Virus record (IMG/VR): IMGVR_UViG_3300026051_000003
Coordinates: 1-51,673 of that record
Origin: a virus
Lineage: Duplodnaviria > Caudoviricetes
Length of the DNA stretch: 51,673 nucleotides
Direction: 5' to 3' (one strand)
The stretch's first letter is position 1. Every line of letters begins with the position of its first letter. The translations under genes and the position numbers were made by a program. Under the pieces are notes generated by a model. The model made no database searches. It was not told where the DNA came from and saw nothing but the letters and a program-made list of their open reading frames with translations. Positions 3,077 to 50,594 of this stretch are shown piece after piece.

Positions 3077-3149
3077 GCCCGCGTAGCTCAATTGGGAGAG
3101 CGCCGCATCTGTGCGGCGGTTGCAAGTTCAACTCTTGCCGCGGGCACCC
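3077..3149 (+). tRNA. tRNA-like RNA with 4-nt anticodon loop (no assignable anticodon)
   Basis: Acceptor GCCCGCG/CGCGGGC, D stem GCTC/GAGC, anticodon stem CCGCA/TGCGG with loop TCTG, T arm GCAAG-TTCAACT-CTTGC. Confidence 0.85.
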
Positions 3150-3156
3150 GAACAAT

Positions 3157-3624
3157 ATGACAACAGATGCATATGAGATTGGTTGGTTGGCCGGCATCTT
3201 CGATGGCGAAGGGTGGGTCGGTGTTTACCGTAGCGGGAAATCATACGGGGCATATCTCGGGGTTAGCAATACAGACCGCGAGATGATTACTCGAATCTTT
3301 CGACTAGTGGGCAATCGCGGGCGCATCTATGACAAGATGCCGAAAAACTACCCAGACCATTGGGCACCCTACTACGAATGGCGCTGCCATAAACGCGATG
3401 ATATTCTGGCTATACTCACTGTACTGCAACCACATCTGACCACTAAAGCGGTTCGCGCCGGCCTAGCTATTCAACTAGCGAATTTGATTGGATCGCGCAA
3501 TTGCGGGCCTGTACAGGTTAATCGTGTTGCGCGCAACGATATTGCAGTGCAGATTCAAGCCCTAAACAAAAAAGGTCGTCGCCCTGACGATCTTACCCGC
3601 CAAGACGACGATCTTCGCTGTTAG
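3157..3624 (+). CDS. free-standing single-motif LAGLIDADG homing endonuclease
   Basis: WLAGIFDGEG motif, VSNTD, L.PHL..K; lower GC. Confidence 0.9.
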   Translation: MTTDAYEIGWLAGIFDGEGWVGVYRSGKSYGAYLGVSNTDREMITRIFRLVGNRGRIYDKMPKNYPDHWAPYYEWRCHKRDDILAILTVLQPHLTTKAVRAGLAIQLANLIGSRNCGPVQVNRVARNDIAVQIQALNKKGRRPDDLTRQDDDLRC

Positions 3625-3691: not shown

Positions 3692-3727
3692 CATGATGAC
3701 CACTCCCTTCCTGGCCGTACAAGCCGG

Positions 3728-4084
3728 TTAAGGTAGTTCGCTTGCCCGCACCCCCAGATACGTTCCCAGCACAAACCACACCATCGGGTGCTTCATGGCC
3801 CGCTCGAACCAGTTCGATTGCCGGTCCAGCAGCGCCTGGTAATGTCGTTGCATAATCCGTGCCCGTTCCGCGGCAAACATGCTGTCCGCGAGGGCAAGTT
3901 GCTGTGCTTCCCACAGGTCAATCTGCAGCATGGTGAGGCTGTGCTGCTGGCCGTCGATGAGGCGCAAGAGGGAATCGGCCTGAGCGTATGTGAAACATAC
4001 CGTTGTGCTATCCGCGGGGGCGCCGGATGCGGTCGAGTAGGGCGGCGCGCACATCGTCCCCAGCGCCACACTGAGCGTCATCAT
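3728..4084 (-). CDS. spanin-like membrane protein (coiled coil, C-terminal TM); start uncertain
   Basis: Last gene of lysis cassette; helical middle and hydrophobic PMVWFVLGTYLGV tail. Confidence 0.5.
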   Translation of the reverse strand: MMTLSVALGTMCAPPYSTASGAPADSTTVCFTYAQADSLLRLIDGQQHSLTMLQIDLWEAQQLALADSMFAAERARIMQRHYQALLDRQSNWFERAMKHPMVWFVLGTYLGVRASELP

Positions 4085-36928: not shown

Positions 36929-37026
36929 CCGGAAAGGGGCACGCAATATGCTACGTACCTTGATGGCAATTGTCTTGTGGGTACTGTCCTGGTGGATTGA
37001 CCGCTAGGACCAACGAAAGGAAAACC

Positions 37027-37302
37027 ATGATAGGCACGCATAAAACCACTGTAACGACTGAAAACGGCATTTCTCGCGTCACGTACCACACGACGGTAAT
37101 ATTTGAGTATGACCGAAACCGCGGCACCGTGCGCCTCAACAGCGGCGGATGGCAAACCGCCACCACAAAGAAACGAATCAACCAGGCTTTTGAGTTATTC
37201 GATTTACCGTGGAGAGTCTACCAGGAGAACTTTGTATGGCGCGTTGTCGGGCCAAACGGGGCCGGGCGCGAATTCACCGACTATATGGCGTTGGAGGTAT
37301 AA
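37027..37302 (+). CDS. conserved phage early hypothetical protein
   Basis: YH.T.I...LNSGGWQTATTKKRIN. Confidence 0.75.
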   Translation: MIGTHKTTVTTENGISRVTYHTTVIFEYDRNRGTVRLNSGGWQTATTKKRINQAFELFDLPWRVYQENFVWRVVGPNGAGREFTDYMALEV

Positions 37303-37402
37303 CCATGTATGACGATCAAGACCTTATCACGCTATGGCTCTGTATCGGACTTTCAATTGTGCTTCTTGTGGCTTTCGGGGCCGCTGTCGCAGGAGTGTAC
37401 TG

Positions 37403-37708
37403 ATGCGCGTGTACCTAGACGATGTTCGTTCGGCGCCCGAAGGATGGATACGTGTAAGGCGCCCACAAAACGCAATACGGCTGCTGGAAACTGGTCTCGT
37501 CACCCATATCAGCGTAGACCATGACCTTGGTAATGACAGAGAGAGTGGCTATACCGTACTATGCTGGATTGAAGAAAAGGTGATGACGGCTGAGTTTAAG
37601 CCGCCGCAAATAACCGTACATACAGCGAATCCCGCCGCGGCCCCAAAAATGCACGCATGCGTCCGGGCCATTTTACGGTTCAGCGATGAAACGAAAGGAC
37701 GTGTATAA
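37403..37708 (+). CDS. cyclic-phosphate-processing receiver-like domain protein
   Basis: VYLDDVR..P.GW, ISVDHDLG, GY, VHTANP. Confidence 0.8.
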   Translation: MRVYLDDVRSAPEGWIRVRRPQNAIRLLETGLVTHISVDHDLGNDRESGYTVLCWIEEKVMTAEFKPPQITVHTANPAAAPKMHACVRAILRFSDETKGRV

Positions 37709-39048: not shown

Positions 39049-39290
39049 GCTGTCTATACTGCTATTCATGCAACCAACTCGTGGACACGGACGATGCCCC
39101 GGATGGGTGCAAATCGTGCCAGGACAAAGGGATGCTATGGTGCTGGGGTTGTGGGCGCGGCTACGAACCGCTGGCATGCCCCAAAATCCGGGACGAGCAC
39201 ACGCACCATATCGTGGGCGCCTTGTGCCCTGAAGGCCACGCATACCCCGGCACCGTCAAGCAAGACCTGGAGGATTTAGGATGGACATAG
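39045..39290 (+). CDS. Cys-rich Zn-binding hypothetical protein
   Basis: Multiple CxxC; GTGA coupling. Confidence 0.6.
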   Translation: MSCLYCYSCNQLVDTDDAPDGCKSCQDKGMLWCWGCGRGYEPLACPKIRDEHTHHIVGALCPEGHAYPGTVKQDLEDLGWT

Positions 39291-39643
39291 TGCACGGCTA
39301 CGTATTGCTGCGGCGGGACCGGGCCGGCAAGTACCGCTCCCTGTACGGATGGACAGATGATGTCTACCAGCTCGGGCAATGGTTCAAGTCCACCAGCGGC
39401 CCCGGATTCCATATGTGGACAACATTGTATGATGTACAAAAATACATACATATGAGCCATGCAGATGATATGTATGCACTTGTGGCCGTCGAAGCCGCAG
39501 GCCGGCACTTGATTTCGCGCAGTCGAGGCCTTTTACTGGACGGCACATACCACCCCATCCTAATCGTGCGCGAACGGATGTTGCGGCACGAAGTGCAAAC
39601 CCTAGCGGAAGGACCGACATGGAACCATGCAAATGGATCGTGA
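39281..39643 (+). CDS. hypothetical protein
   Basis: GGAGG SD; GPGFH motif. Confidence 0.6.
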   Translation: MDIVHGYVLLRRDRAGKYRSLYGWTDDVYQLGQWFKSTSGPGFHMWTTLYDVQKYIHMSHADDMYALVAVEAAGRHLISRSRGLLLDGTYHPILIVRERMLRHEVQTLAEGPTWNHANGS

Positions 39644-43204: not shown

Positions 43205-43402
43205 ATGAGCGCAAGTAAACAAGTGTCTGTCCAATTCCCGGCAATCACGTTGCTAGGCGTAGCGTTTGTAGTGTTAAAGCTGTGCCATGTCATTAACTGG
43301 TCGTGGTGGTGGGTTACTGCGCCATTTTGGGGAGGGATTGCGGTATTGCTTGTGCTTCTGGTACTTGCCGGGATTCTTGCCGCGATCTTAAAGTCAAGAT
43401 GA
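43205..43402 (+). CDS. small phage membrane protein
   Basis: LL...FVVLKL..VI.WSWWWV.AP.W pattern. Confidence 0.8.
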   Translation: MSASKQVSVQFPAITLLGVAFVVLKLCHVINWSWWWVTAPFWGGIAVLLVLLVLAGILAAILKSR

Positions 43403-43890
43403 ACCTGGACGAATTGGTGCGCCAGCACCATGCTGAGGCGGTGTGCATCGCGGAGCAATGGGCGCCCGCCGGCAGCGCGGAGGACGTCGTGCAAAATGCA
43501 TGGATCGCGGCCCTGGAGCACCCGGATCGCGTGCCGGACGATCCGCGGCACTTCATGCGCTGGTTCGTGCGGGTGCTGCGGAACCAGGCCAGCAACATGC
43601 GGAGCGGCCTCCAGACCGGGCGCACGGGCAGCGAATTGGAGTGGCGCAACCGTCCGCTCCGGGACGTGTACACGGTGCCGCCGACCGCTGACGTGGCATG
43701 CGAATTGCAGGAGATGCTGGAGAAGATGCGGGGCATGGTGCCGGGACGTCGGCAAATGCTACTGGCAGCGATGCAGGGGTACACACACGCGGAAATGGCC
43801 GCGGAAGAGGGCATCAGCGAATGGGGGTCGCGTTGCAAGTTGCGGCGCGCACGGCTGCAATTGAGGGCATTATGCGAGGGGAACGAATGA
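43399..43890 (+). CDS. ECF-type sigma-70 family sigma factor
   Basis: AEDVVQNAW, F..WF.RVLRN (region 2); GYTHAEMA...GIS...R..L.RAR (region 4). Confidence 0.85.
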   Translation: MNLDELVRQHHAEAVCIAEQWAPAGSAEDVVQNAWIAALEHPDRVPDDPRHFMRWFVRVLRNQASNMRSGLQTGRTGSELEWRNRPLRDVYTVPPTADVACELQEMLEKMRGMVPGRRQMLLAAMQGYTHAEMAAEEGISEWGSRCKLRRARLQLRALCEGNE

Positions 43891-44400: not shown

Positions 44401-45165
44401 ATGATTACCTGGGAATCCCTCAGCAGCGATTCGCGCCAGCACGGCGACCAGATCAACTACCAGGTGTGCCCGGAGTGTATGGACGCGAAGTGGCACTTCT
44501 ACATCAACACCGGCACGGGCGGCTACAAGTGCTTCAAGTGCGAGGCCGCAGGCTACTTGCCAGTGGAAGGCACGTTCAACCGGCCCAAGCCCCGGGAAGC
44601 TGTGTGGGAGGAAATCAGCCTGCCGCCGAATGGCCCGCCGGGTGCATGGGCGCGCTCCTATCTGTTGCAGCGCGGCATTGGGCGCACGACATTCGAGCAA
44701 CTTGGCTTGCGTGAATGGACGGGGCAGGGCCGCATCCTGATCCCCTACACGAATTCCGAGGGCGCGGTCATCTACTGGCAGGCGCGGGATTTCACGGGGC
44801 GCCAGGAGCCTCGGTACCTCGGTGCGCCAGACGTGCGGCGCCCGCTGTTCATCGCGCCGGGCGACGGCCGCATCGTGCTGGTGGAGGGTGTGTTCGATGC
44901 GGTGCGCGTGAACCAGGTCGGGCCGACAGCCGTGGCGATGGGCGGCAAGACGCTGGCAGAGCACATGGTGAAGCCGCTGGAGCATGTGGTGCGGGCCGGA
45001 TCGCAGGTCTACGTGTGTTTGGACGGGGATGCCTTGAAGAATGCGCTGGAGCTGCAATGCTTCGTGCAGGCGCAGCTCGGCATCGACACAATCATGGCAT
45101 GCCCGGACTTCGGGGAGGACCCCGGCAGCATGCCACTGGAAAAACTGGAGGGTTTGTTTAGTTGA
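44401..45165 (+). CDS. DNA primase (Zn finger + TOPRIM)
   Basis: CPEC...H...CFKC, RILIP, YWQAR, LVEGVFDA, CLDGDA, DPG. Confidence 0.9.
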   Translation: MITWESLSSDSRQHGDQINYQVCPECMDAKWHFYINTGTGGYKCFKCEAAGYLPVEGTFNRPKPREAVWEEISLPPNGPPGAWARSYLLQRGIGRTTFEQLGLREWTGQGRILIPYTNSEGAVIYWQARDFTGRQEPRYLGAPDVRRPLFIAPGDGRIVLVEGVFDAVRVNQVGPTAVAMGGKTLAEHMVKPLEHVVRAGSQVYVCLDGDALKNALELQCFVQAQLGIDTIMACPDFGEDPGSMPLEKLEGLFS

Positions 45166-47531
45166 AGGCCATCTTCATCATCAGCACCCTGGAGCGTGAC
45201 GCGCTCAAGTTTGGACAGGCCCTGACGTGGCGCACCGAAGGCGAACTGCGGGACCTGGCGCGGGATTGCGGGCTCGACGTCGAGGTTGAGTTTGTGATCC
45301 AGGACCCTCTCTTGGCGGGCCGCAACAAGGCCGGCATCGGCATTGCGGCGATCCGGGAGGAACGCCCCCGGCTGCTGGACGCCATTAGTGCCGCGGCCCC
45401 GGACCTGGTTGTGTGCTTCGGGCCCGTGGCGGCGGCCTGCGTGCTAGGCCATGGCAACCTGCGCGAGGACGATCTGGTGCGGCGCCGGCATGAGCCCTTC
45501 GGCCCGGATGGTCCGCCCGTGTACTATGTGTATGGCCTGGAGAACGTGCGGGCGAGGCCCGGCCTCAAACAGTGGTGGCATCTAGACTTGAAGGCGGCAA
45601 TTGCGGGCTACACGGAGCCGGTGTACGGGGAGTACACGTACCTGCGGCCCGGTACCGATGATTGGGACTTGCCGTGGAAGTCGGCTCATGCGATTGGGTA
45701 CTGGGCTTATGATGTGAAAGAACTCGGGTGGGACTGTGAAACTACTGGGCTAGTATTCTGGCATCCAGAAGCGCGGTTGCGCATGATGCAAATCAGTGAT
45801 CGGGTTGGCCGTGCATGGGTGATACAAGGTACGCCAGATTCCCGTTTCCCGCAATGGTTACTGGATATATTAGCTGATCCTAACATACGTAAGGTGGGCA
45901 GCAACATCAAATTCGACGTGAAGTGGGCGCGCCGCTTCGGCATAGAAGTTAACAACTTCGCTGATTCCGGCACCCGCGAACACATCATAGATTCGTCGCA
46001 ACCGTACACCGACCTGAAGCGCCTGACGTTCAAGTACCTCCCGCGCCTGGCTGACTACAGCAAGCCACAGAAGGAATACATCAAGCAAGTTGGAGGCGGT
46101 AGCACCACGGTCGGTTGGGCTGTAGCCGAGGACGAGCCTATGTTCCAGTACGCGGCGGCAGATGCCGAGGCCAGCTTGGCGGCATACCTCGGACAAGTTG
46201 GTCCTTTGGCTTCGCTGGAGCGCCCCCGCAAACTCTATGAGGAACTCTACCCGGTGCTGGCCGACATGGAGTACCAGGGTGTGCGCGTGGACACAGCCAT
46301 CAACCTTGAACTGGACAGCCTGTACACAGAGCGGCTGCGGGATGTCCGTGCCCGCATCGCGGCGCAACTAGGTCCCGTGAACCTGAACAGTGCCAGCGCC
46401 CTTGCCGGCGCTTTGCTGGACGCGGTGCCGGGGCTCGACTTGAGTTTCAAGGACTGGAAGAATCTGGTGGGCAACGAGGAATCGCCAGAACTTTCGACGC
46501 GCCGGGAAATCCTGGAGCGGGAATCGCACAAATCCCCCGTAATCCAGGACGTGCTGGAGTACCGGCGGCTCCGAACGCGCCACACGAACTTCATCAAAAA
46601 GGTGCGGGAGAAGCATCTGGTGGAGCACCACGGGCACAGCTTCATCCATGCCAGTTTCCGCACCGATCTGGTGGAGACATATCGGTTGAGCTGCACGGAG
46701 CCTAACATGATGAACATCCCGCGCAAGGACTTCCAGACCCCGGAACTGTCCGTGAAGCGGCAATTCGTGTCGCGCTGGGATGGCGGCCAGATGCTGGAAG
46801 TGGACCAGTCGCAGGTCGAGATACGGTTCGCGGCATGGGCGTCCGGCGATGCGGCGATGCAGGACGCGGTAGCAAGTGGGCGCGACATCCACACCGAGAT
46901 GGCCAGTATATTGCTGGCAAAGCCGGCCGCGGACATCACGGAGCAGGAGCGCTACGAGTGCAAGACGAGGACATTCCTTATCATGTACGGCGGGGGCGCG
47001 AAGAAGCTGGCAGAGCAACTGATGAAGTCCGACGTGAACCCCCGCAAGGTGACGAAGGACGAAGCCTGGAAGATGATCCGGGATTACTTCGCTACGTTCC
47101 GCGGCCTCAAGGCGCACATCGACGACACCCATGACCGTGCGTGGAAGGAGCTGGCCGTGGAAACCGCCTTCGGGTTCCGCCGCACCTTTGCAGCGCCCGT
47201 GACGCGCGAGGACAAGTGGTCCCTGCAGCGCCAGGCATTCAACACCAAGGTGCAGAGCGGCGCAGCCTGCCTCACGTACTGCGCTATGATCGTGTTGCAG
47301 AACGCACTACGAGAGCGCAACTTGCAATCGAAAATGGTGGTGCAGGTGCATGACTCATTGCTCATAGATGTCCATCCCGACGAGGTTAACGTGTTGCCTG
47401 GCCTAGCGAAATGGGCCATGGAGCAGGGGGCCGTAGAGAAAGCCCGGGAGTTTGGCGTAGAATTTGCAGTAGACCTCAAAGCTGACGTGAAGATGGGCGA
47501 TTCGTGGGGTAATATGGCAGAAGTGAAGTGA
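45162..47531 (+). CDS. polA: family A DNA polymerase with N-terminal UDG-like domain and 3'-5' exonuclease
   Basis: DCETTG, NIKFD, YAAAD; motif A DQSQVEIR, motif B RYECKTRTFLIMYG, motif C QVHDS. Confidence 0.93.
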   Translation: MKAIFIISTLERDALKFGQALTWRTEGELRDLARDCGLDVEVEFVIQDPLLAGRNKAGIGIAAIREERPRLLDAISAAAPDLVVCFGPVAAACVLGHGNLREDDLVRRRHEPFGPDGPPVYYVYGLENVRARPGLKQWWHLDLKAAIAGYTEPVYGEYTYLRPGTDDWDLPWKSAHAIGYWAYDVKELGWDCETTGLVFWHPEARLRMMQISDRVGRAWVIQGTPDSRFPQWLLDILADPNIRKVGSNIKFDVKWARRFGIEVNNFADSGTREHIIDSSQPYTDLKRLTFKYLPRLADYSKPQKEYIKQVGGGSTTVGWAVAEDEPMFQYAAADAEASLAAYLGQVGPLASLERPRKLYEELYPVLADMEYQGVRVDTAINLELDSLYTERLRDVRARIAAQLGPVNLNSASALAGALLDAVPGLDLSFKDWKNLVGNEESPELSTRREILERESHKSPVIQDVLEYRRLRTRHTNFIKKVREKHLVEHHGHSFIHASFRTDLVETYRLSCTEPNMMNIPRKDFQTPELSVKRQFVSRWDGGQMLEVDQSQVEIRFAAWASGDAAMQDAVASGRDIHTEMASILLAKPAADITEQERYECKTRTFLIMYGGGAKKLAEQLMKSDVNPRKVTKDEAWKMIRDYFATFRGLKAHIDDTHDRAWKELAVETAFGFRRTFAAPVTREDKWSLQRQAFNTKVQSGAACLTYCAMIVLQNALRERNLQSKMVVQVHDSLLIDVHPDEVNVLPGLAKWAMEQGAVEKAREFGVEFAVDLKADVKMGDSWGNMAEVK

Positions 47532-47646
47532 TGTAGTAGCGGCGTGGTGATATTGGCCCAGTGAATGGGCAGTAGGAGAGCACCTTGTCTCTGCCGCGGC
47601 AAACGAGACTCGGAAACATTGGTTCGAATCCAGTCTACTGCATCAC
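47528..47646 (+). ncRNA. tRNA-like structured RNA with expanded D and anticodon arms
   Basis: T arm ATTGG-TTCGAAT-CCAGT directly followed by a 3' strand pairing with 47528-47539 (12 bp); two internal hairpins. Confidence 0.65.
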
Positions 47647-47691
47647 AGTATTTTGCGGTCGGGGCATCGAGGGCACTTACAAAGGAGTAAA

Positions 47692-48027
47692 ATGCGGACA
47701 GAGAGAATGGAACGGATTCACCGCAATATCACTGATGGCGCGGTGGACACGAATCTGCGCTGGCTTCTTCGCCAGATGTGTGACGAGATGGACACGATTA
47801 ACGAGCGACTGGATATGCACGCCCCGAAGGGCGGCGTATACATTAAGCCCGGGGATATTGTTACCGGGGCGCTGAGCGGCACTCGTTACAGGGTCGTCCC
47901 ACAAATGAGACGGGGGATGGCGACCGTAGCATGGAACAATGTAGATGTTCCCTCGTACGCCCTCGCTCTGTATGGCGAGTTGCTGAAGGATGGTCAGCCT
48001 GTCCTCGGCTACGAAGGAGCAAAATGA
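47692..48027 (+). CDS. hypothetical protein, paralog family member 3
   Basis: AAGGAG SD; KPGDIV...DGQPVLGYE. Confidence 0.7.
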   Translation: MRTERMERIHRNITDGAVDTNLRWLLRQMCDEMDTINERLDMHAPKGGVYIKPGDIVTGALSGTRYRVVPQMRRGMATVAWNNVDVPSYALALYGELLKDGQPVLGYEGAK

Positions 48028-48182
48028 CCGCATTCGTGACATGGCTGGCAGTGATCGCCGTATCGTGGGCGTTGTCGATGTGGCGCGACATCCGGGGCGA
48101 TGACGACCCCACAACGCACTGGACTCTAGGGGCCATCGGAGGTACCGTGGCCGGCGTACTGGCAATGATTTTGTGGAGGTAG
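48024..48182 (+). CDS. small two-TM membrane protein
   Basis: ATGA coupling; two hydrophobic segments. Confidence 0.6.
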   Translation: MTAFVTWLAVIAVSWALSMWRDIRGDDDPTTHWTLGAIGGTVAGVLAMILWR

Positions 48183-48186
48183 CAGA

Positions 48187-48408
48187 ATGAAACTGTATGT
48201 GGCGCGCGACAAGGAGTACGGCCATGTAGGCCCTTACGTGCTTTGCCCCAAGAAGATGGCGCTGATGGAGGGCGGTTACTGGGACCATAAGTATGCGGAG
48301 GATATGCTGGACGAGCGCATGATGAAGCTGATCCGCAAACTGAAACTCAAGAAGGGCGAGCAGAAACTGGTGGAACTGACAATGACGGAGGTAGTAGACA
48401 ATGGCTGA
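48187..48408 (+). CDS. hypothetical protein
   Basis: GGAGG SD; MKLYVARDK. Confidence 0.7.
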   Translation: MKLYVARDKEYGHVGPYVLCPKKMALMEGGYWDHKYAEDMLDERMMKLIRKLKLKKGEQKLVELTMTEVVDNG

Positions 48409-49129
48409 AGTTTTCAAGGTAAATATCAAAGGCAACATCTCGAATTTGTCCTCGGACAGCAAATTTGTGGACATCCCGGAGAATGATTCGGTGCTGTTCC
48501 GGCCGGCCCCGCCCGTGCGCGACGATGGCATGTTGTTCTACCCGGTCGTGAACCACTACAAGCTGAAGGACGCGGAAGGCCGCGGCACGGCACTGGCGGA
48601 CCTGGAAGCGCACGGCAACGACGAGACCGGGTATGTGGACTACATCGCGCGGCTGTCCAAGGCGCTGCTGGAGAGCGGCGGCGACGACCTGAAGAAGATC
48701 GGCAAGGACCTGAAGGCGTCCCGGCGCTTCTACTGGCAGGGCTGGAAGGCCGTCAAGGGCGCGGACGGCACTTTCCAGTACGAGCGGTGCCGGTTGATGG
48801 CGGTGCCGAAGACGTGCGCGACGGATATCATGCAGGCGTTCAAGTCAATGGACGAATTTGGCGAAGCGCCGGGATGCGACCCGGTAGGGGGTCAGCTTGT
48901 GCGGATTTCCCGCAGCGGCAGTGGCTTCAACACGAAGTACCGCGCGGAACGCAGTGGGCTCGTGACGTCACTCGACGACATCATTCCGGATTGGAAGACC
49001 CAGTTGTTCGAGGACATCTACGACGCCCTGAAACTCAACATCGTGTCGCCGGACGAGCAGAAGAAGCTGGCGCAGTTGACATACCCGAACCTTCCGTGGA
49101 AGGAATTGGAGGAAAAACATGGCCTCTAA
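48401..49129 (+). CDS. putative single-stranded DNA-binding protein (gp32-like)
   Basis: FRP.PP...HY...RFY...DP..G..V.I.RSG.G..TKY pattern; replication context. Confidence 0.7.
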   Translation: MAEVFKVNIKGNISNLSSDSKFVDIPENDSVLFRPAPPVRDDGMLFYPVVNHYKLKDAEGRGTALADLEAHGNDETGYVDYIARLSKALLESGGDDLKKIGKDLKASRRFYWQGWKAVKGADGTFQYERCRLMAVPKTCATDIMQAFKSMDEFGEAPGCDPVGGQLVRISRSGSGFNTKYRAERSGLVTSLDDIIPDWKTQLFEDIYDALKLNIVSPDEQKKLAQLTYPNLPWKELEEKHGL

Positions 49130-49382
49130 GAAGAAAGCAATCCCGAGCGTAAATGTCCGCCCAAAAGATGTGACCGGAATGAACTTCACTCTCAGTCTCG
49201 AAGCAGACGGGAAGCTCCGTGCCACGGGCGACGACGAGGAAAACTGGTCTATCGGTATCCTGGGGAGAGACGGTATCTTGCATCTCTATAAAGGAATTGA
49301 CAGCGACTTTTTGCAGACAAACGACGCTGGCTGCATTCTTGTTGACCATGCTGGGTACGACTACGAGGACGAGATGGAGTAA
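49119..49382 (+). CDS. hypothetical protein
   Basis: GGAGG SD. Confidence 0.65.
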   Translation: MASKKKAIPSVNVRPKDVTGMNFTLSLEADGKLRATGDDEENWSIGILGRDGILHLYKGIDSDFLQTNDAGCILVDHAGYDYEDEME

Positions 49383-49684
49383 TGCGCGGCCGCACAGCGA
49401 AGATGTTGCGCCGGTACGCCGGCATGGTTATCCACCTGGCCCCGGAGGACGTGCAGCGACATCCCCGGTGGTTCTGGAGAAAGGTTAAGGGCGGATGGAA
49501 GCAAATGAATGTCGTGGAGCGGACCCGATTGAGCAACTCTATGCGGCAATTGCCGCGGAATCTCGACGTAAGGTACTGGAGCAGCCCTACGACGCCAGCA
49601 CCATGCGATACGAGCGCCGACCCAGCATCCGATTCCGGGCCAGTGAGTCCGGGAACTGCCCCCGCCGCATCTGGTACCGCTTGA
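49382..49684 (+). CDS. small basic hypothetical protein overlapping exonuclease
   Basis: TAATG coupling; MRGRTAKMLRRYA. Confidence 0.45.
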   Translation: MRGRTAKMLRRYAGMVIHLAPEDVQRHPRWFWRKVKGGWKQMNVVERTRLSNSMRQLPRNLDVRYWSSPTTPAPCDTSADPASDSGPVSPGTAPAASGTA

Positions 49685-50397
49685 TGGGCTTTGTGCCGAC
49701 GCCGGACGACCCGTCGTTGGTGCTGAAGCAGCTGGAGGGCAATATTTCCCAGGACGTGATCCGCGGGCTGTTCCAGCAGTACGGCATCCCGGTCCGCGGC
49801 ATCGTCTTCGAGGCGGACGGCGCGCAGACGGAAACCCTGGACGGGCGCAAGGAATTCGAAGTGCCGATGGATGACGGTTCCGCGGAAACGGTGCTGGTGT
49901 CCGCCCGCGCAGATGGGGACCTAGATGCCGCGGGAGAGCCGGCGGTGTTCGAATTCAAGACGATGGCGAAGTACGCCGTGAAGTGGTTGCAGGCCGCCTT
50001 TGCGAAGGGTGGAGTCGAAGCTGCGCTGGAGTACCTGCACCAGAAGCGCCGGTACTACATCACGCAGATGCAGATTACGATGGCAGTGTTCAAGTTCAAG
50101 CGCACGTACTTCAACTTCAAGGACAAGGACACGACGGACTACGGGCTGGTGCGGGCAGATGGTAGTCACTGCGGGCTGGTGCTGGAGTACGACGACGGCA
50201 TGGTGCAGAAGCTGCTGCGGAAGTTCGCGGACGTCAAGCGCTATGTGCTGGCGGAGAAGGAAATCCCGTTCAATGCGCCGGATGTGCCGCTGGATGGCTC
50301 GATGGAGTGCGGGTACTGCCCGTTCTACTATCGGTGCTATGCCGCGCAGTCCCGCGGCGGTCGCGTTATATACCCTGGAATGGAGGCAGCAGCGTGA
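49495..50397 (+). CDS. Cas4-like PD-(D/E)XK exonuclease
   Basis: ASE.G.CPR..WY, ADG, EFKT, Q.Q, C..CPF...C cluster. Confidence 0.85.
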   Translation: MEANECRGADPIEQLYAAIAAESRRKVLEQPYDASTMRYERRPSIRFRASESGNCPRRIWYRLMGFVPTPDDPSLVLKQLEGNISQDVIRGLFQQYGIPVRGIVFEADGAQTETLDGRKEFEVPMDDGSAETVLVSARADGDLDAAGEPAVFEFKTMAKYAVKWLQAAFAKGGVEAALEYLHQKRRYYITQMQITMAVFKFKRTYFNFKDKDTTDYGLVRADGSHCGLVLEYDDGMVQKLLRKFADVKRYVLAEKEIPFNAPDVPLDGSMECGYCPFYYRCYAAQSRGGRVIYPGMEAAA

Positions 50398-50594
50398 TCC
50401 CTTACGAATGGCACTACAACCCTGCAACTGGCTACGGGGAACTCCAGTGGGAAGATGGCGTGTACCTCCTGCTGCAGGGCGCACAAGCCGCCGCCTTTGA
50501 TGCGGCCCCGGATAAGCACATGCTAGCAGTCGAGCAATATCCGCAGGCACGCCAGCACCTGGCCGACATGCGCGCGAAACGGAGGGCACGATGA
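50394..50594 (+). CDS. hypothetical protein
   Basis: GTGA coupling, GGAGG SD. Confidence 0.6.
   Translation: MIPYEWHYNPATGYGELQWEDGVYLLLQGAQAAAFDAAPDKHMLAVEQYPQARQHLADMRAKRRAR

What the first reader, a model, noticed from the sequence alone, without database searches (positions are those of the whole stretch)
47528..47646. Second tRNA-shaped RNA: canonical T arm and acceptor, remodelled D and anticodon arms
Seen: ATTGG-TTCGAAT-CCAGT T arm, then CTACTGCATCAC pairing with GTGATGTAGTAG (12 bp, one G-U) that overlaps the polA stop. A D-loop-like remnant CAGTAGGAGAGCACC is preceded by an inserted hairpin TATT-G-GCCCA-GTGAA-TGGGC-AGTA. The anticodon arm is elongated, CC-TT-GTCTC-(TGCCGCGGCAAAC)-GAGAC-TC-GG, with no 7-nt loop. 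An alternative 5' strand GCAGTAG (47569) pairs perfectly with the same 3' strand, allowing two conformers. Inference: a tRNA-derived ncRNA. With 3077-3149, both tRNA-like genes found keep the elbow and acceptor but cannot decode.
Basis: partly seen in the sequence, partly recalled or inferred. Interest (0 to 1): 0.7.

Follow-up and report, generated by a model that had tools for sequence, protein, structure and literature searches.

The report
Orphan tRNA-derived element after phage polA
Just after the DNA polymerase gene of an uncultivated phage lies a 119-base stretch that keeps a tRNA's acceptor stem and T arm but has no usable anticodon loop; it is clearly tRNA-derived, but no relative carries it and no RNA data exist, so it may be a working tRNA mimic or only a rearranged leftover.

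Summary
It is more than chance: the Rfam tRNA model scores 24.5 bits at 47569-47642, E 2e-4 for the whole 51.7-kb genome, though below the 29-bit cut-off.

The element is tRNA-derived. It has a perfect T arm, a 7-bp acceptor stem with A73, and a D-loop remnant. Two hairpin insertions replace the D stem and lengthen the anticodon arm, so it cannot decode. It is not a YrlA RNA, a tmRNA, or an attP-type tRNA fragment.

It lies in an 870-nt lineage-specific insert between polA and the SSB gene, alongside small ORFs; the one I searched has no homologue. Most of the 20 polA relatives (36-50% identity) where both genes are visible have them nearly adjacent. None has a tRNA-like element there. Neither of two near-complete relative genomes holds a copy.

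No covariation or expression test was possible. The only close relative (about 90-95% identical, in a soil run) has no contig over this stretch.

I rate two readings equally, at 0.4 each. One is a co-transcribed tRNA mimic processed by host tRNA enzymes. The other is a recently rearranged, functionless tRNA remnant. Interest is modest.

The parts
45162..47531 (+). polA (family A DNA polymerase with 3'-5' exonuclease, 789 aa); its stop TGA at 47529-47531 lies inside the first 4 bp of the 12-bp stem
   Evidence: ORF list and translation; precomputed Pfam PF01612 + PF00476 and about 50 homologues at 36-60% identity
47465..47474 (+). TGCAGTAGAC inside the polA coding sequence: a third, perfect 10-bp complement to 47633-47642
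   Evidence: Inverted repeat I2. GCAGTAG occurs 7 times in the window against 4.5 expected, with 3 copies clustered here. May be chance.
47528..47539 (+). 5' strand of the 12-bp closing stem (GTGATGTAGTAG); the inner 7 nt, GTAGTAG, serve as acceptor 5' strand in the extended form
   Evidence: Inverted repeat I1; pair probabilities 0.76-1.0 in the 119-nt ensemble
47551..47574 (+). Inserted hairpin TATT-G-GCCCA-GTGAA-TGGGC-AGTA where a D loop would be
   Evidence: Sequence; GCCCA/TGGGC pair probabilities 0.63-1.0; model R1 deletes it when aligned to real tRNAs
47569..47575 (+). Alternative acceptor 5' strand GCAGTAG (7 Watson-Crick pairs with 47635-47641); overlaps the 3' side of the inserted hairpin, so the two folds exclude each other
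   Evidence: Inverted repeat I9; used by the Rfam tRNA alignment; MFE of the 75-nt form
47571..47582 (+). D-loop / D-stem 3' remnant AGTAGGAGAGCA, which I read against the usual tRNA pattern A14 R15 .. G18 G19 A21 GAGC A26
   Evidence: Sequence; the positional assignment is my own reading from general tRNA knowledge; aligned to the GG..AG region of real tRNAs by R1
47583..47613 (+). Elongated arm in place of the anticodon arm: CC/GG, a 2x2 internal loop, GTCTC/GAGAC, a 13-nt loop containing the palindrome TGCCGCGGCA (which can add UGC/GCA around a CGCG loop); no 7-nt anticodon loop
   Evidence: Sequence; MFE of the compact form; ARAGORN finds no anticodon arm
47614..47617 (+). 4-nt variable loop AAAC
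   Evidence: Rfam tRNA alignment
47618..47634 (+). Canonical T arm ATTGG-TTCGAAT-CCAGT (5 bp including one G-U; 7-nt loop)
47635..47646 (+). Acceptor 3' strand CTACTGC, discriminator A47642, then TCAC, which extends the stem to 12 bp; no encoded CCA
47692..48027 (+). Downstream ORF (111 aa, AAAGGAG ribosome-binding site just upstream of the ATG) with no homologue; part of the 870-nt insert between polA and the SSB gene (48401-49129)
   Evidence: No terminator-like site lies between the element and this ORF.

Best explanation
The element is a tRNA-derived, non-decoding RNA that is co-transcribed with polA.

Shown:
- It descends from a tRNA gene.
- It keeps the acceptor stem, the T arm and a D-loop remnant with a GG dinucleotide. 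By general tRNA knowledge, those are the parts that host tRNA enzymes read.
- One hairpin is inserted in the D region, and the anticodon arm is lengthened into a hairpin with no anticodon loop.

Inferred mechanism:
- The acceptor/T-arm stack is recognised by RNase P on the 5' side.
- A 3' tRNA-processing nuclease cuts after A47642.
- The element would then act as punctuation. It would cut the polA message away from the downstream ORFs and release a small, stable tRNA-like RNA. That RNA would be about 74 nt if the inner strand GCAGUAG is used, or about 110-119 nt if the outer strand is used.
- The outer 5' strand overlaps the polA stop codon. A terminating ribosome would therefore unpair the 12-bp stem and favour the compact fold.

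This last step and all enzyme steps are inference only.
For: - tRNA ancestry: RF00005 scores 24.5 bits, E 2.0e-4 per genome. The T-loop motif is enriched, 2 observed against 0.11 expected. Model R1 aligns to canonical tRNAs with both extra hairpins deleted.
- Damage is not random. The acceptor has 7 of 7 Watson-Crick pairs, and the T stem has 5 of 5 pairs. The two non-tRNA hairpins are cleanly paired: the drawn structure has 36 pairs, 3 of them G-U.
- Those G-U pairs would be A-C mismatches on the other strand, which folds less well (-37.0 against -43.8 kcal/mol).
- The compact form folds as a three-way tRNA shape at its MFE, 41% of the ensemble.
- No terminator-like site was found between polA, the element and the next ORF, so co-transcription is plausible.
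- The same genome holds a second tRNA gene that is intact except for a 4-nt anticodon loop. Two anticodon-less tRNA shapes and no canonical tRNA suggest that non-decoding mimics are kept.
- Precedent, from abstracts or passages read: RNase P processing of mascRNA makes the MALAT1 3' end and needs an extended acceptor stem (PMC8457004, abstract). M. smegmatis YrlA, which has a 7-bp acceptor-like stem, is cleaved by RNase P RNA in vitro and carries a CCA tail in vivo (PMC4201824, passages).
Against: - No homologue exists anywhere I could search, so there is no sign of selection.
  - The 22-mer spanning T loop to discriminator has 0 exact matches in IMG/VR and 0 in GTDB species genomes.
  - 0 of 2 near-complete relative genomes and 0 of 5 fragments have a tRNA-model match at the equivalent place.
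  - R1 finds nothing but itself above 28 bits in 57 sources, 448,623 bases.
- In most of the 20 polA relatives where both genes are seen, polA is followed within about 30-100 nt by the SSB gene. The element therefore sits in a lineage-specific insert with small ORFs, the one tested having no homologue. This is compatible with recent junk.
- The score is below Rfam's cut-off.
- In the full 119-nt context the T stem is only 13-18% populated, and the MFE uses a different inner fold.
- By my crude ORF picking, spacers over 100 nt are common in this genome, so the 160-nt gap is not itself unusual.
Confidence: 0.4

Rival explanations
1. The element is a functionless remnant. A tRNA gene, or a piece of one captured by recombination, arrived with the 870-nt insert between polA and the SSB gene. 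Two small palindromic insertions or deletions disrupted it recently. The T arm and acceptor look perfect only because too little time has passed for point mutations to accumulate.
For: - The element is lineage-specific. It is absent at this spot in all 20 relatives where the polA-SSB junction is visible, and the junction is a variable hot spot with gaps from about 30 to 566 nt holding unrelated small ORFs.
- The neighbouring ORF has no homologue.
- The tRNA score is sub-threshold.
- No homologue was found in any search.
- Partial tRNA-like sequences are a known, pervasive by-product of recombination at tRNA genes (PMC9897764, abstract and passages).
Against: - The changes are confined to the two arms not needed by tRNA-processing enzymes, and the replacements are themselves well-paired helices.
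- The acceptor stem is extended by 5 further Watson-Crick pairs beyond the tRNA part.
- The 3' acceptor strand has two further exact complements nearby. My own estimate for a 7-mer complement arising by chance within about 90 nt is roughly 0.005.
- A second anticodon-less tRNA exists in the same genome.
Confidence: 0.4
2. The element is a tRNA decoy. The RNA mimics the tRNA body (acceptor, T arm, elbow) and soaks up a host factor that binds or cuts tRNAs. Candidates are a tRNA-targeting defence nuclease or toxin, or a tRNA-modifying or processing enzyme. Because it lacks an anticodon loop, it would not take part in translation.
For: - The genome holds two tRNA-shaped genes without a working anticodon loop and no canonical tRNA.
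- The phage carries a cREC_REC (cyclic-phosphate-processing receiver) protein at 37334-37708, E 3.7e-26. Iyer and colleagues predict this domain to process 2',3'-cyclic RNA ends and find it linked to RNA ligases (PMC7824862, passages). That hints at a conflict over RNA damage.
- A polA relative (L007) carries a Ro60/TROVE gene with two YrlA-like tRNA mimics, so tRNA mimicry occurs in this phage group.
- Phage tRNAs are known to counter tRNA-cleaving defences (PMC10264068, PMC11464382 and PMC11555353; search listing and abstract openings only).
Against: - The published cases use decoding-competent tRNAs that replace cleaved host tRNAs, not anticodon-less decoys.
- No partner protein is identifiable here.
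- No RNA ligase or Ro60 gene was found in the window.
- There is no conservation.
Confidence: 0.12
3. The element is an attP-type tRNA fragment or another DNA-level signal. In this reading the tRNA-like 3' part copies the host tRNA gene into which the phage integrates, or the clustered GCAGTAG repeats are protein-binding sites such as an origin.
For: - The best tRNA-like stretch is the 3' part, from T arm to discriminator.
- There are three direct copies and one inverted copy of G[C/T]AGTAG within 180 nt, inside the replication module.
Against: - The genome has no tyrosine integrase (PF00589) and no serine recombinase (PF00239) at E <= 1.
- The 22-mer has no identical match in 185,579 species genomes.
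- Both acceptor strands are present, which a simple att core would not need.
- The flanks of the repeats are not alike; only 6 of 29 columns are invariant.
- The 14-mer consensus is not enriched: 6 matches against 4.0 expected.
- Similarity between the polA 3' end and the element is not significant; 89 of 500 shuffles reach it.
Confidence: 0.05

Closest known systems
Canonical tRNA (Rfam RF00005)
   Same: 7-bp acceptor stem with discriminator A, a 4-nt variable loop, a 5-bp T stem with a TTCGAAT loop, and a D-loop GG followed by AGAGCA. The model aligns end to end.
   Different: No D stem; a 31-nt arm with a 13-nt loop instead of a 17-nt anticodon arm; an acceptor that can extend to 12 bp; 24.5 bits, below the 29-bit cut-off; ARAGORN does not call it.
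mascRNA / MALAT1 3'-end tRNA-like element (PMC8457004, abstract read)
   Same: A tRNA-like structure directly downstream of a long functional transcript. Leader-trailer pairing extends the acceptor stem. Likeness of function is proposed here, not shown.
   Different: mascRNA is a eukaryotic nuclear RNA with no sequence relation. No match to that Rfam family appeared in the E <= 10 search. Processing here is untested.
YrlA / bacterial Y RNAs (Rfam RF02553; PMC4201824, passages read)
   Same: Non-decoding tRNA mimics that also occur in phages. They keep the T arm and D features. D. radiodurans Yrn1 is described with a 6-nt 'anticodon loop' and with T and D arms oriented differently from YrlA relative to the 5' end.
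   Different: No YrlA hit for this element, although the same kind of search finds YrlA-like RNAs in relative L007 (49.8 and 29.6 bits). The order of parts is not permuted. There is no TROVE/Ro60 gene in the genome. I saw no GNCGAA motif in the stem by eye.
D-armless (type III) mitochondrial tRNA, such as mt-tRNA-Ser(AGY) (PMC7609411, passages read)
   Same: The compact 74-nt conformer is a three-way junction in which a 7-nt connector replaces the D arm.
   Different: Those tRNAs keep a 7-nt anticodon loop and decode; this element has none. ARAGORN's mitochondrial mode finds nothing.
tRNA gene fragments left by integrating elements (PMC9897764, abstract and passages read)
   Same: A low-scoring, partial tRNA-like sequence in mobile DNA.
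   Different: Both acceptor strands are present, the genome has no integrase, and no matching complete tRNA was found.

Membership tests
tRNA (RF00005) | Covariance-model score at or above the gathering score of 29 bits | tested here: not met
   24.5 bits at 47569-47642. The window's other tRNA scores 56.7 bits.
tRNA (RF00005) | 7-bp acceptor stem, discriminator base, and a 5-bp T stem with a 7-nt TTCRANY loop | tested here: met
   GCAGTAG/CTACTGC with 7 of 7 Watson-Crick pairs, A47642, and ATTGG-TTCGAAT-CCAGT
tRNA (RF00005) | D stem of 3-4 bp | tested here: not met
   The model deletes the D arm. The best candidate I could draw, GCGT/GAGC, has only 2 Watson-Crick pairs plus a G-U and a G-A, by my reading.
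tRNA (RF00005) | 5-bp anticodon stem with a 7-nt loop and U33 | tested here: not met
   13-nt loop. ARAGORN finds nothing in default, intron or mitochondrial modes, and only a mismatched 'Gly(gcc)' at the 80% threshold.
YrlA (RF02553) | Match to the family model | tested here: not met
   No hit at E <= 10 on 47400-47800. L007 gives 49.8 and 29.6 bits in a search of the same kind.
YrlA (RF02553) | Permuted order (T arm, closed acceptor-like stem-loop, D arm) with the 5'/3' stem on the anticodon side | tested here: not met
   The order here is D-like, long arm, T arm, acceptor 3' strand, as in a normal tRNA. The family architecture is taken from the consensus and from PMC4201824.
YrlA (RF02553) | Encoded next to a Ro60/Rsr (TROVE) gene | tested here: not met
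   No TROVE match in the window at E <= 1. Relative G002 has one next to its YrlA-like RNAs. A host-encoded Ro60 cannot be excluded.
tmRNA | Detected by a tmRNA model or ARAGORN; G3-U70 pair; tag reading frame | tested here: not met
   ARAGORN tmRNA mode finds nothing. tmRNA_permuted scores 10.8 bits against a cut-off of 47. Pair 3-70 is A-U, by my reading of the sequence. The element is 119 nt, with no room for a tag frame.
attP-type tRNA fragment | An integrase in the element, and an identical 3' tRNA segment in a host genome | tested here: not met
   No PF00589 or PF00239 match. The 22-mer has 0 matches in GTDB species genomes. The host may be unsampled, so the second half is inconclusive.
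tRNA-like processing element (mascRNA type) | Cleavage by RNase P and a 3' tRNA-processing nuclease that releases a small RNA and defines the upstream transcript's 3' end | not testable with these tools
   No RNA run is listed for this phage. Only the position and the extended acceptor stem fit.

The most novel reading that the evidence does not exclude
This virulent phage keeps two tRNA mimics that have lost only their decoding ability. One is 3077-3146, with a 4-nt anticodon loop. The other is 47528-47646, with its D and anticodon arms rebuilt into hairpins. In this reading they act as decoys or competitive substrates for host factors that read the tRNA body, such as tRNA-targeting defence nucleases or toxins. 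In addition, the polA-proximal mimic would switch between a 12-bp closed form and a compact tRNA-like form, depending on whether a ribosome is terminating on the polA stop codon.
Probability: 0.1. Interest if true: 0.75.

Novelty: new variant of a known kind. Interest (0 to 1): 0.33.

Why it matters
If the RNA is made and processed, it would be a bacterial-virus counterpart of tRNA-like punctuation elements. With the phage's other anticodon-less tRNA, it would suggest that phages keep tRNA shapes for uses other than decoding, for example as processing signals or decoys in conflicts over tRNA. If it is a remnant, it is one more example of the partial tRNA-like sequences that confuse annotation. 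At present nothing separates the two readings, so the practical value is a well-defined, cheap experiment rather than a discovery.

Tried and rejected
**Searches for homologues**
- blastn of 47400-47800 against 50,697 phage records: no match.
- Exact 22-mer (T loop to discriminator): 0 matches in IMG/VR and 0 in GTDB genomes.
- polA as a single query in IMG/VR: no close relative.
- polA alignments: 80 IMG/VR loci and 34 metagenome loci, with best identity 50%.
It did not return the contig of the closest relatives, P0002 (58%) and P0025 (60%). Their context could not be read because the look-up of encoding contigs is closed.
- Degenerate pattern with a free T stem in GTDB: 5 hits, all ordinary or odd tRNAs. 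Four are DPANN archaeal tRNA-Gly-type genes and one is a Caulobacteraceae MAG tRNA. They share only the acceptor stem. L123 is unrelated to the window by tblastx.
- Gapped pattern (D remnant ... T loop) in IMG/VR: 9 loci. These are phage tRNAs with long variable arms plus uncalled odd tRNA-likes. None has this architecture.
- The downstream ORF has no homologue, so no cassette could be traced.

**Sequencing runs**
- No RNA holder is listed.
- X1 is probably the source sample.
- X2, a soil run, holds short contigs mostly 90-95% alike. It has no cover between 46912 and 48118. Nothing can be said about the element in that relative.

**Ideas dropped**
- Duplication of the polA 3' end: not significant.
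- Iteron-like repeats.
- A shared promoter or other repeated motif in the spacer.
- An unusually long spacer as an argument for function.
- Archaeal-type intron splicing: the phage encodes a bacterial-type sigma factor and a GroES.
- Stop-codon readthrough: by my reading, readthrough of the polA stop would add only 10 codons.
Full report
**Setting**

The window is a whole IMG/VR virus record of 51,673 nt, estimated 100% complete. A structural module lies on the minus strand. A replication module on the plus strand wraps around the record ends. The plus-strand genes identified are:
- DnaB-like helicase, 657-1919
- RuvC-like resolvase, 1859-2482
- GroES-like Cpn10, 2448-2840
- LAGLIDADG endonuclease, 3157-3624 (Pfam E 3.3e-4, 21.3 bits, just under the 22.5-bit cut-off)
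- sigma-70-like factor, 43303-43890
- primase, 44401-45165
- polA, 45162-47531
- SSB, 48401-49129
- Cas4-like exonuclease, 49495-50397

No tyrosine integrase or serine recombinase is present. I therefore treat it as a probably virulent phage of a bacterium.

The finding lies in the 160-nt spacer between the polA stop (47529-47531) and the next ORF. That ORF starts at ATG 47692 and has an AAAGGAG site just upstream.

**Observation**

- T arm: 47618-47634.
- 12-bp closing stem: 47528-47539 with 47635-47646, 11 Watson-Crick pairs plus one G-U, overlapping the polA stop.
- Inserted hairpin: 47551-47574.
- D-loop-like stretch: 47570-47584.
- Long arm: 47583-47613, with a 13-nt loop.
- Alternative 5' strand: GCAGTAG at 47569-47575.

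The tRNA resemblance is more than chance.
- RF00005 aligns over its full length at 47569-47642 with 24.5 bits. E is 0.0064 in a 401-nt search of all 4227 families and 2.0e-4 for this family over the whole genome.
- The T-loop motif is over-represented: 2 observed against 0.11 expected.

It is nevertheless below Rfam's 29-bit cut-off. ARAGORN does not call it in any standard mode.

**Structure**

Two mutually exclusive folds exist.
- The 75-nt compact form (47569-47643) has as its MFE a three-way junction: a 7-bp acceptor, a 7-nt connector in place of the D arm, the long arm, a 4-nt variable loop and the T arm. It scores -24.1 kcal/mol, makes up 41% of the ensemble, and has z -2.09.
- In the 119-nt context the 12-bp outer stem dominates, with pair probabilities 0.76-1.0. 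The T stem is only 13-18% populated.
- Nearest-neighbour models ignore tertiary contacts, so this is a caution and not a refutation.
- The plus strand folds better than the minus strand, -43.8 against -37.0 kcal/mol. That fits the three G-U pairs in the drawn structure.

The stretch AGUAGGAGAGCA matches the usual tRNA pattern A14-R15..G18-G19-A21-GAGC-A26, by my reading from general tRNA knowledge. The GG that normally touches the T loop is therefore still there and is unpaired in the extended form.

**Ancestry**

I built a covariance model of the extended structure (R1) and searched 57 sources totalling 448,623 bases. It returned the element itself at 152 bits. All next-best matches of 15-28 bits fall on tRNA or tRNA-like loci; in the two alignments shown, the D-region hairpin and most of the long arm are deleted.

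This is what one expects of a tRNA that has gained two hairpin insertions. No particular donor tRNA was found. tRNAs sharing the acceptor stem and T loop in GTDB species genomes are four DPANN archaeal tRNA-Gly-type genes and one odd Caulobacteraceae tRNA, and they are alike only in those parts.

**Comparative evidence**

There is none for the element.
- About 50 polA homologues at 36-60% identity exist.
- I retrieved 26 relative loci. In the 20 where both genes are visible, most have polA followed by the SSB gene after roughly 30-100 nt. A few have unrelated small ORFs in between, with gaps up to 566 nt.
- The window's 870-nt insert is therefore lineage-specific. It comprises the element plus ORFs at 47692-48027, 47931-48182 and 48187-48408.
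- The first of these ORFs has no homologue in 5.8 billion proteins.
- Two near-complete relative genomes and five fragments contain no tRNA-model match at the equivalent position.
- Among 114 polA loci, ARAGORN finds canonical tRNAs in only 3, none next to the polA stop.
- A soil run holds a relative that is mostly 90-95% alike, but its short contigs leave 46912-48118 uncovered. No RNA run is listed.

This is missing data, not a negative result.

**Known families**

- Not a YrlA RNA. There is no model hit, the order of parts is not permuted, and the genome has no Ro60/TROVE gene. As a positive control, relative L007 gives YrlA-like hits of 49.8 and 29.6 bits beside a 527-aa TROVE protein.
- Not a tmRNA.
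- Not an attP core in any testable sense.
- The compact form resembles D-armless mitochondrial tRNAs (PMC7609411, passages) but lacks an anticodon loop.
- In position and in its leader-trailer-extended acceptor stem, the element most resembles the mascRNA element that RNase P uses to make the MALAT1 3' end (PMC8457004, abstract). This is likeness of proposed function only.

**Interpretation**

That the element descends from a tRNA is, in my judgement, about 90% likely. Whether it is a working RNA is open.

For function:
- The damage is confined to the two arms that tRNA-processing enzymes do not need.
- The replacements are clean helices.
- The acceptor stem is extended by five more pairs.
- The 3' strand has extra exact complements nearby.
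- The genome's only other tRNA gene (3077-3146, 56.7 bits) is perfect except for a 4-nt anticodon loop.

Against function:
- The element is an orphan, sitting with small ORFs in a known insertion hot spot.
- It scores below the family cut-off.
- Its T arm is not favoured thermodynamically in the long form.
- The spacer length is not unusual in this genome.

I give 0.4 to a co-transcribed, processed tRNA mimic that acts as punctuation. I give 0.4 to a recent functionless remnant, about 0.12 to a decoy role, and 0.05 to DNA-level explanations. The idea that ribosomes terminating at the polA stop shift the RNA from the closed to the compact fold follows from the geometry but is untested.

**Verdict**

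The feature is real and tRNA-derived, and it was correctly described. Its status as an ncRNA is unproven. Novelty is at most a new variant of the known kind 'phage tRNA-like or pseudo-tRNA element'. Interest is modest until a relative or an RNA end is found.

Noticed in passing
window 3077-3146 (+), with ORF 3157-3624: The only high-scoring tRNA gene of the phage (56.7 bits) has canonical acceptor, D and T arms. Its anticodon stem closes on a 4-nt loop (UCUG), or 6 nt if the last pair opens. ARAGORN gives 'tRNA-???'. A LAGLIDADG-type endonuclease ORF (weak Pfam match) follows 10 nt later. Its 25-nt T-arm/acceptor string has no exact match in IMG/VR.
   Followed up: partly
L007 1867-1922 and 1979-2079 (G002:C1:40483-40669, minus strand), TROVE gene at G002:C1:40973-41911: A 41%-identity polA relative carries two YrlA-like tRNA mimics (29.6 and 49.8 bits, below the cut-off of 69) directly beside a 527-aa Ro60/TROVE gene, upstream of its polA. 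This looks like a phage Rsr-Y RNA module in this phage group.
   Followed up: partly
window 37334-37708 (+): A cREC_REC (cyclic-phosphate-processing receiver) domain protein, E 3.7e-26, sits next to a Kyano_Gp96-family ORF at 36970-37302. The literature predicts the domain to process 2',3'-cyclic RNA ends. No RNA ligase was found nearby (PMC7824862 passages).
   Followed up: partly
polA-SSB junction in relatives (for example L002 5376-5942, L083 2139-2455, L087 5861-6254, L093 2132-2400): The junction is an insertion hot spot. Gaps range from about 30 nt to 566 nt and hold unrelated small ORFs. Several relatives carry a TTGAC(A/T)...TAGAAT-type promoter there. L093 has a stretch of about 130 nt closed by an 11-bp stem (GGAGCGGGG.../...CCCCGCTCC) that matches no Rfam family at E <= 1.
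   Followed up: partly
L129 314-412; L135 about 3700-3800; L127 8753-8852; L131 7022-7120: Other IMG/VR contigs hold tRNA-like genes that ARAGORN does not call. L129, for example, has what looks like a 9-nt anticodon loop and a long variable region. Several jumbo-type tRNA clusters (L128, L132-L134) have Asn, Ile or Thr tRNAs with unusually long variable arms.
   Followed up: no
L123 6342-6426 (-): A Caulobacteraceae MAG has an 85-nt tRNA with a Leu-type D arm and a long variable arm, but ARAGORN reads it as Pro(tgg). It shares the acceptor stem GCAGTAG with the element. The locus is otherwise unrelated to the window.
   Followed up: partly
window 44500-50500 against run X2: A soil metagenome run holds short contigs mostly 90-95% identical to parts of polA, the ORF at 48187-48408, the SSB gene and the exonuclease gene. 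A close relative of this otherwise isolated wetland phage therefore exists in soil.
   Followed up: partly
window 39381-39391 (+): A second T-loop-like 11-mer (GGTTCAAGTCC) lies inside or near ORF 39281-39643. No tRNA-model match is there at E <= 1.
   Followed up: no
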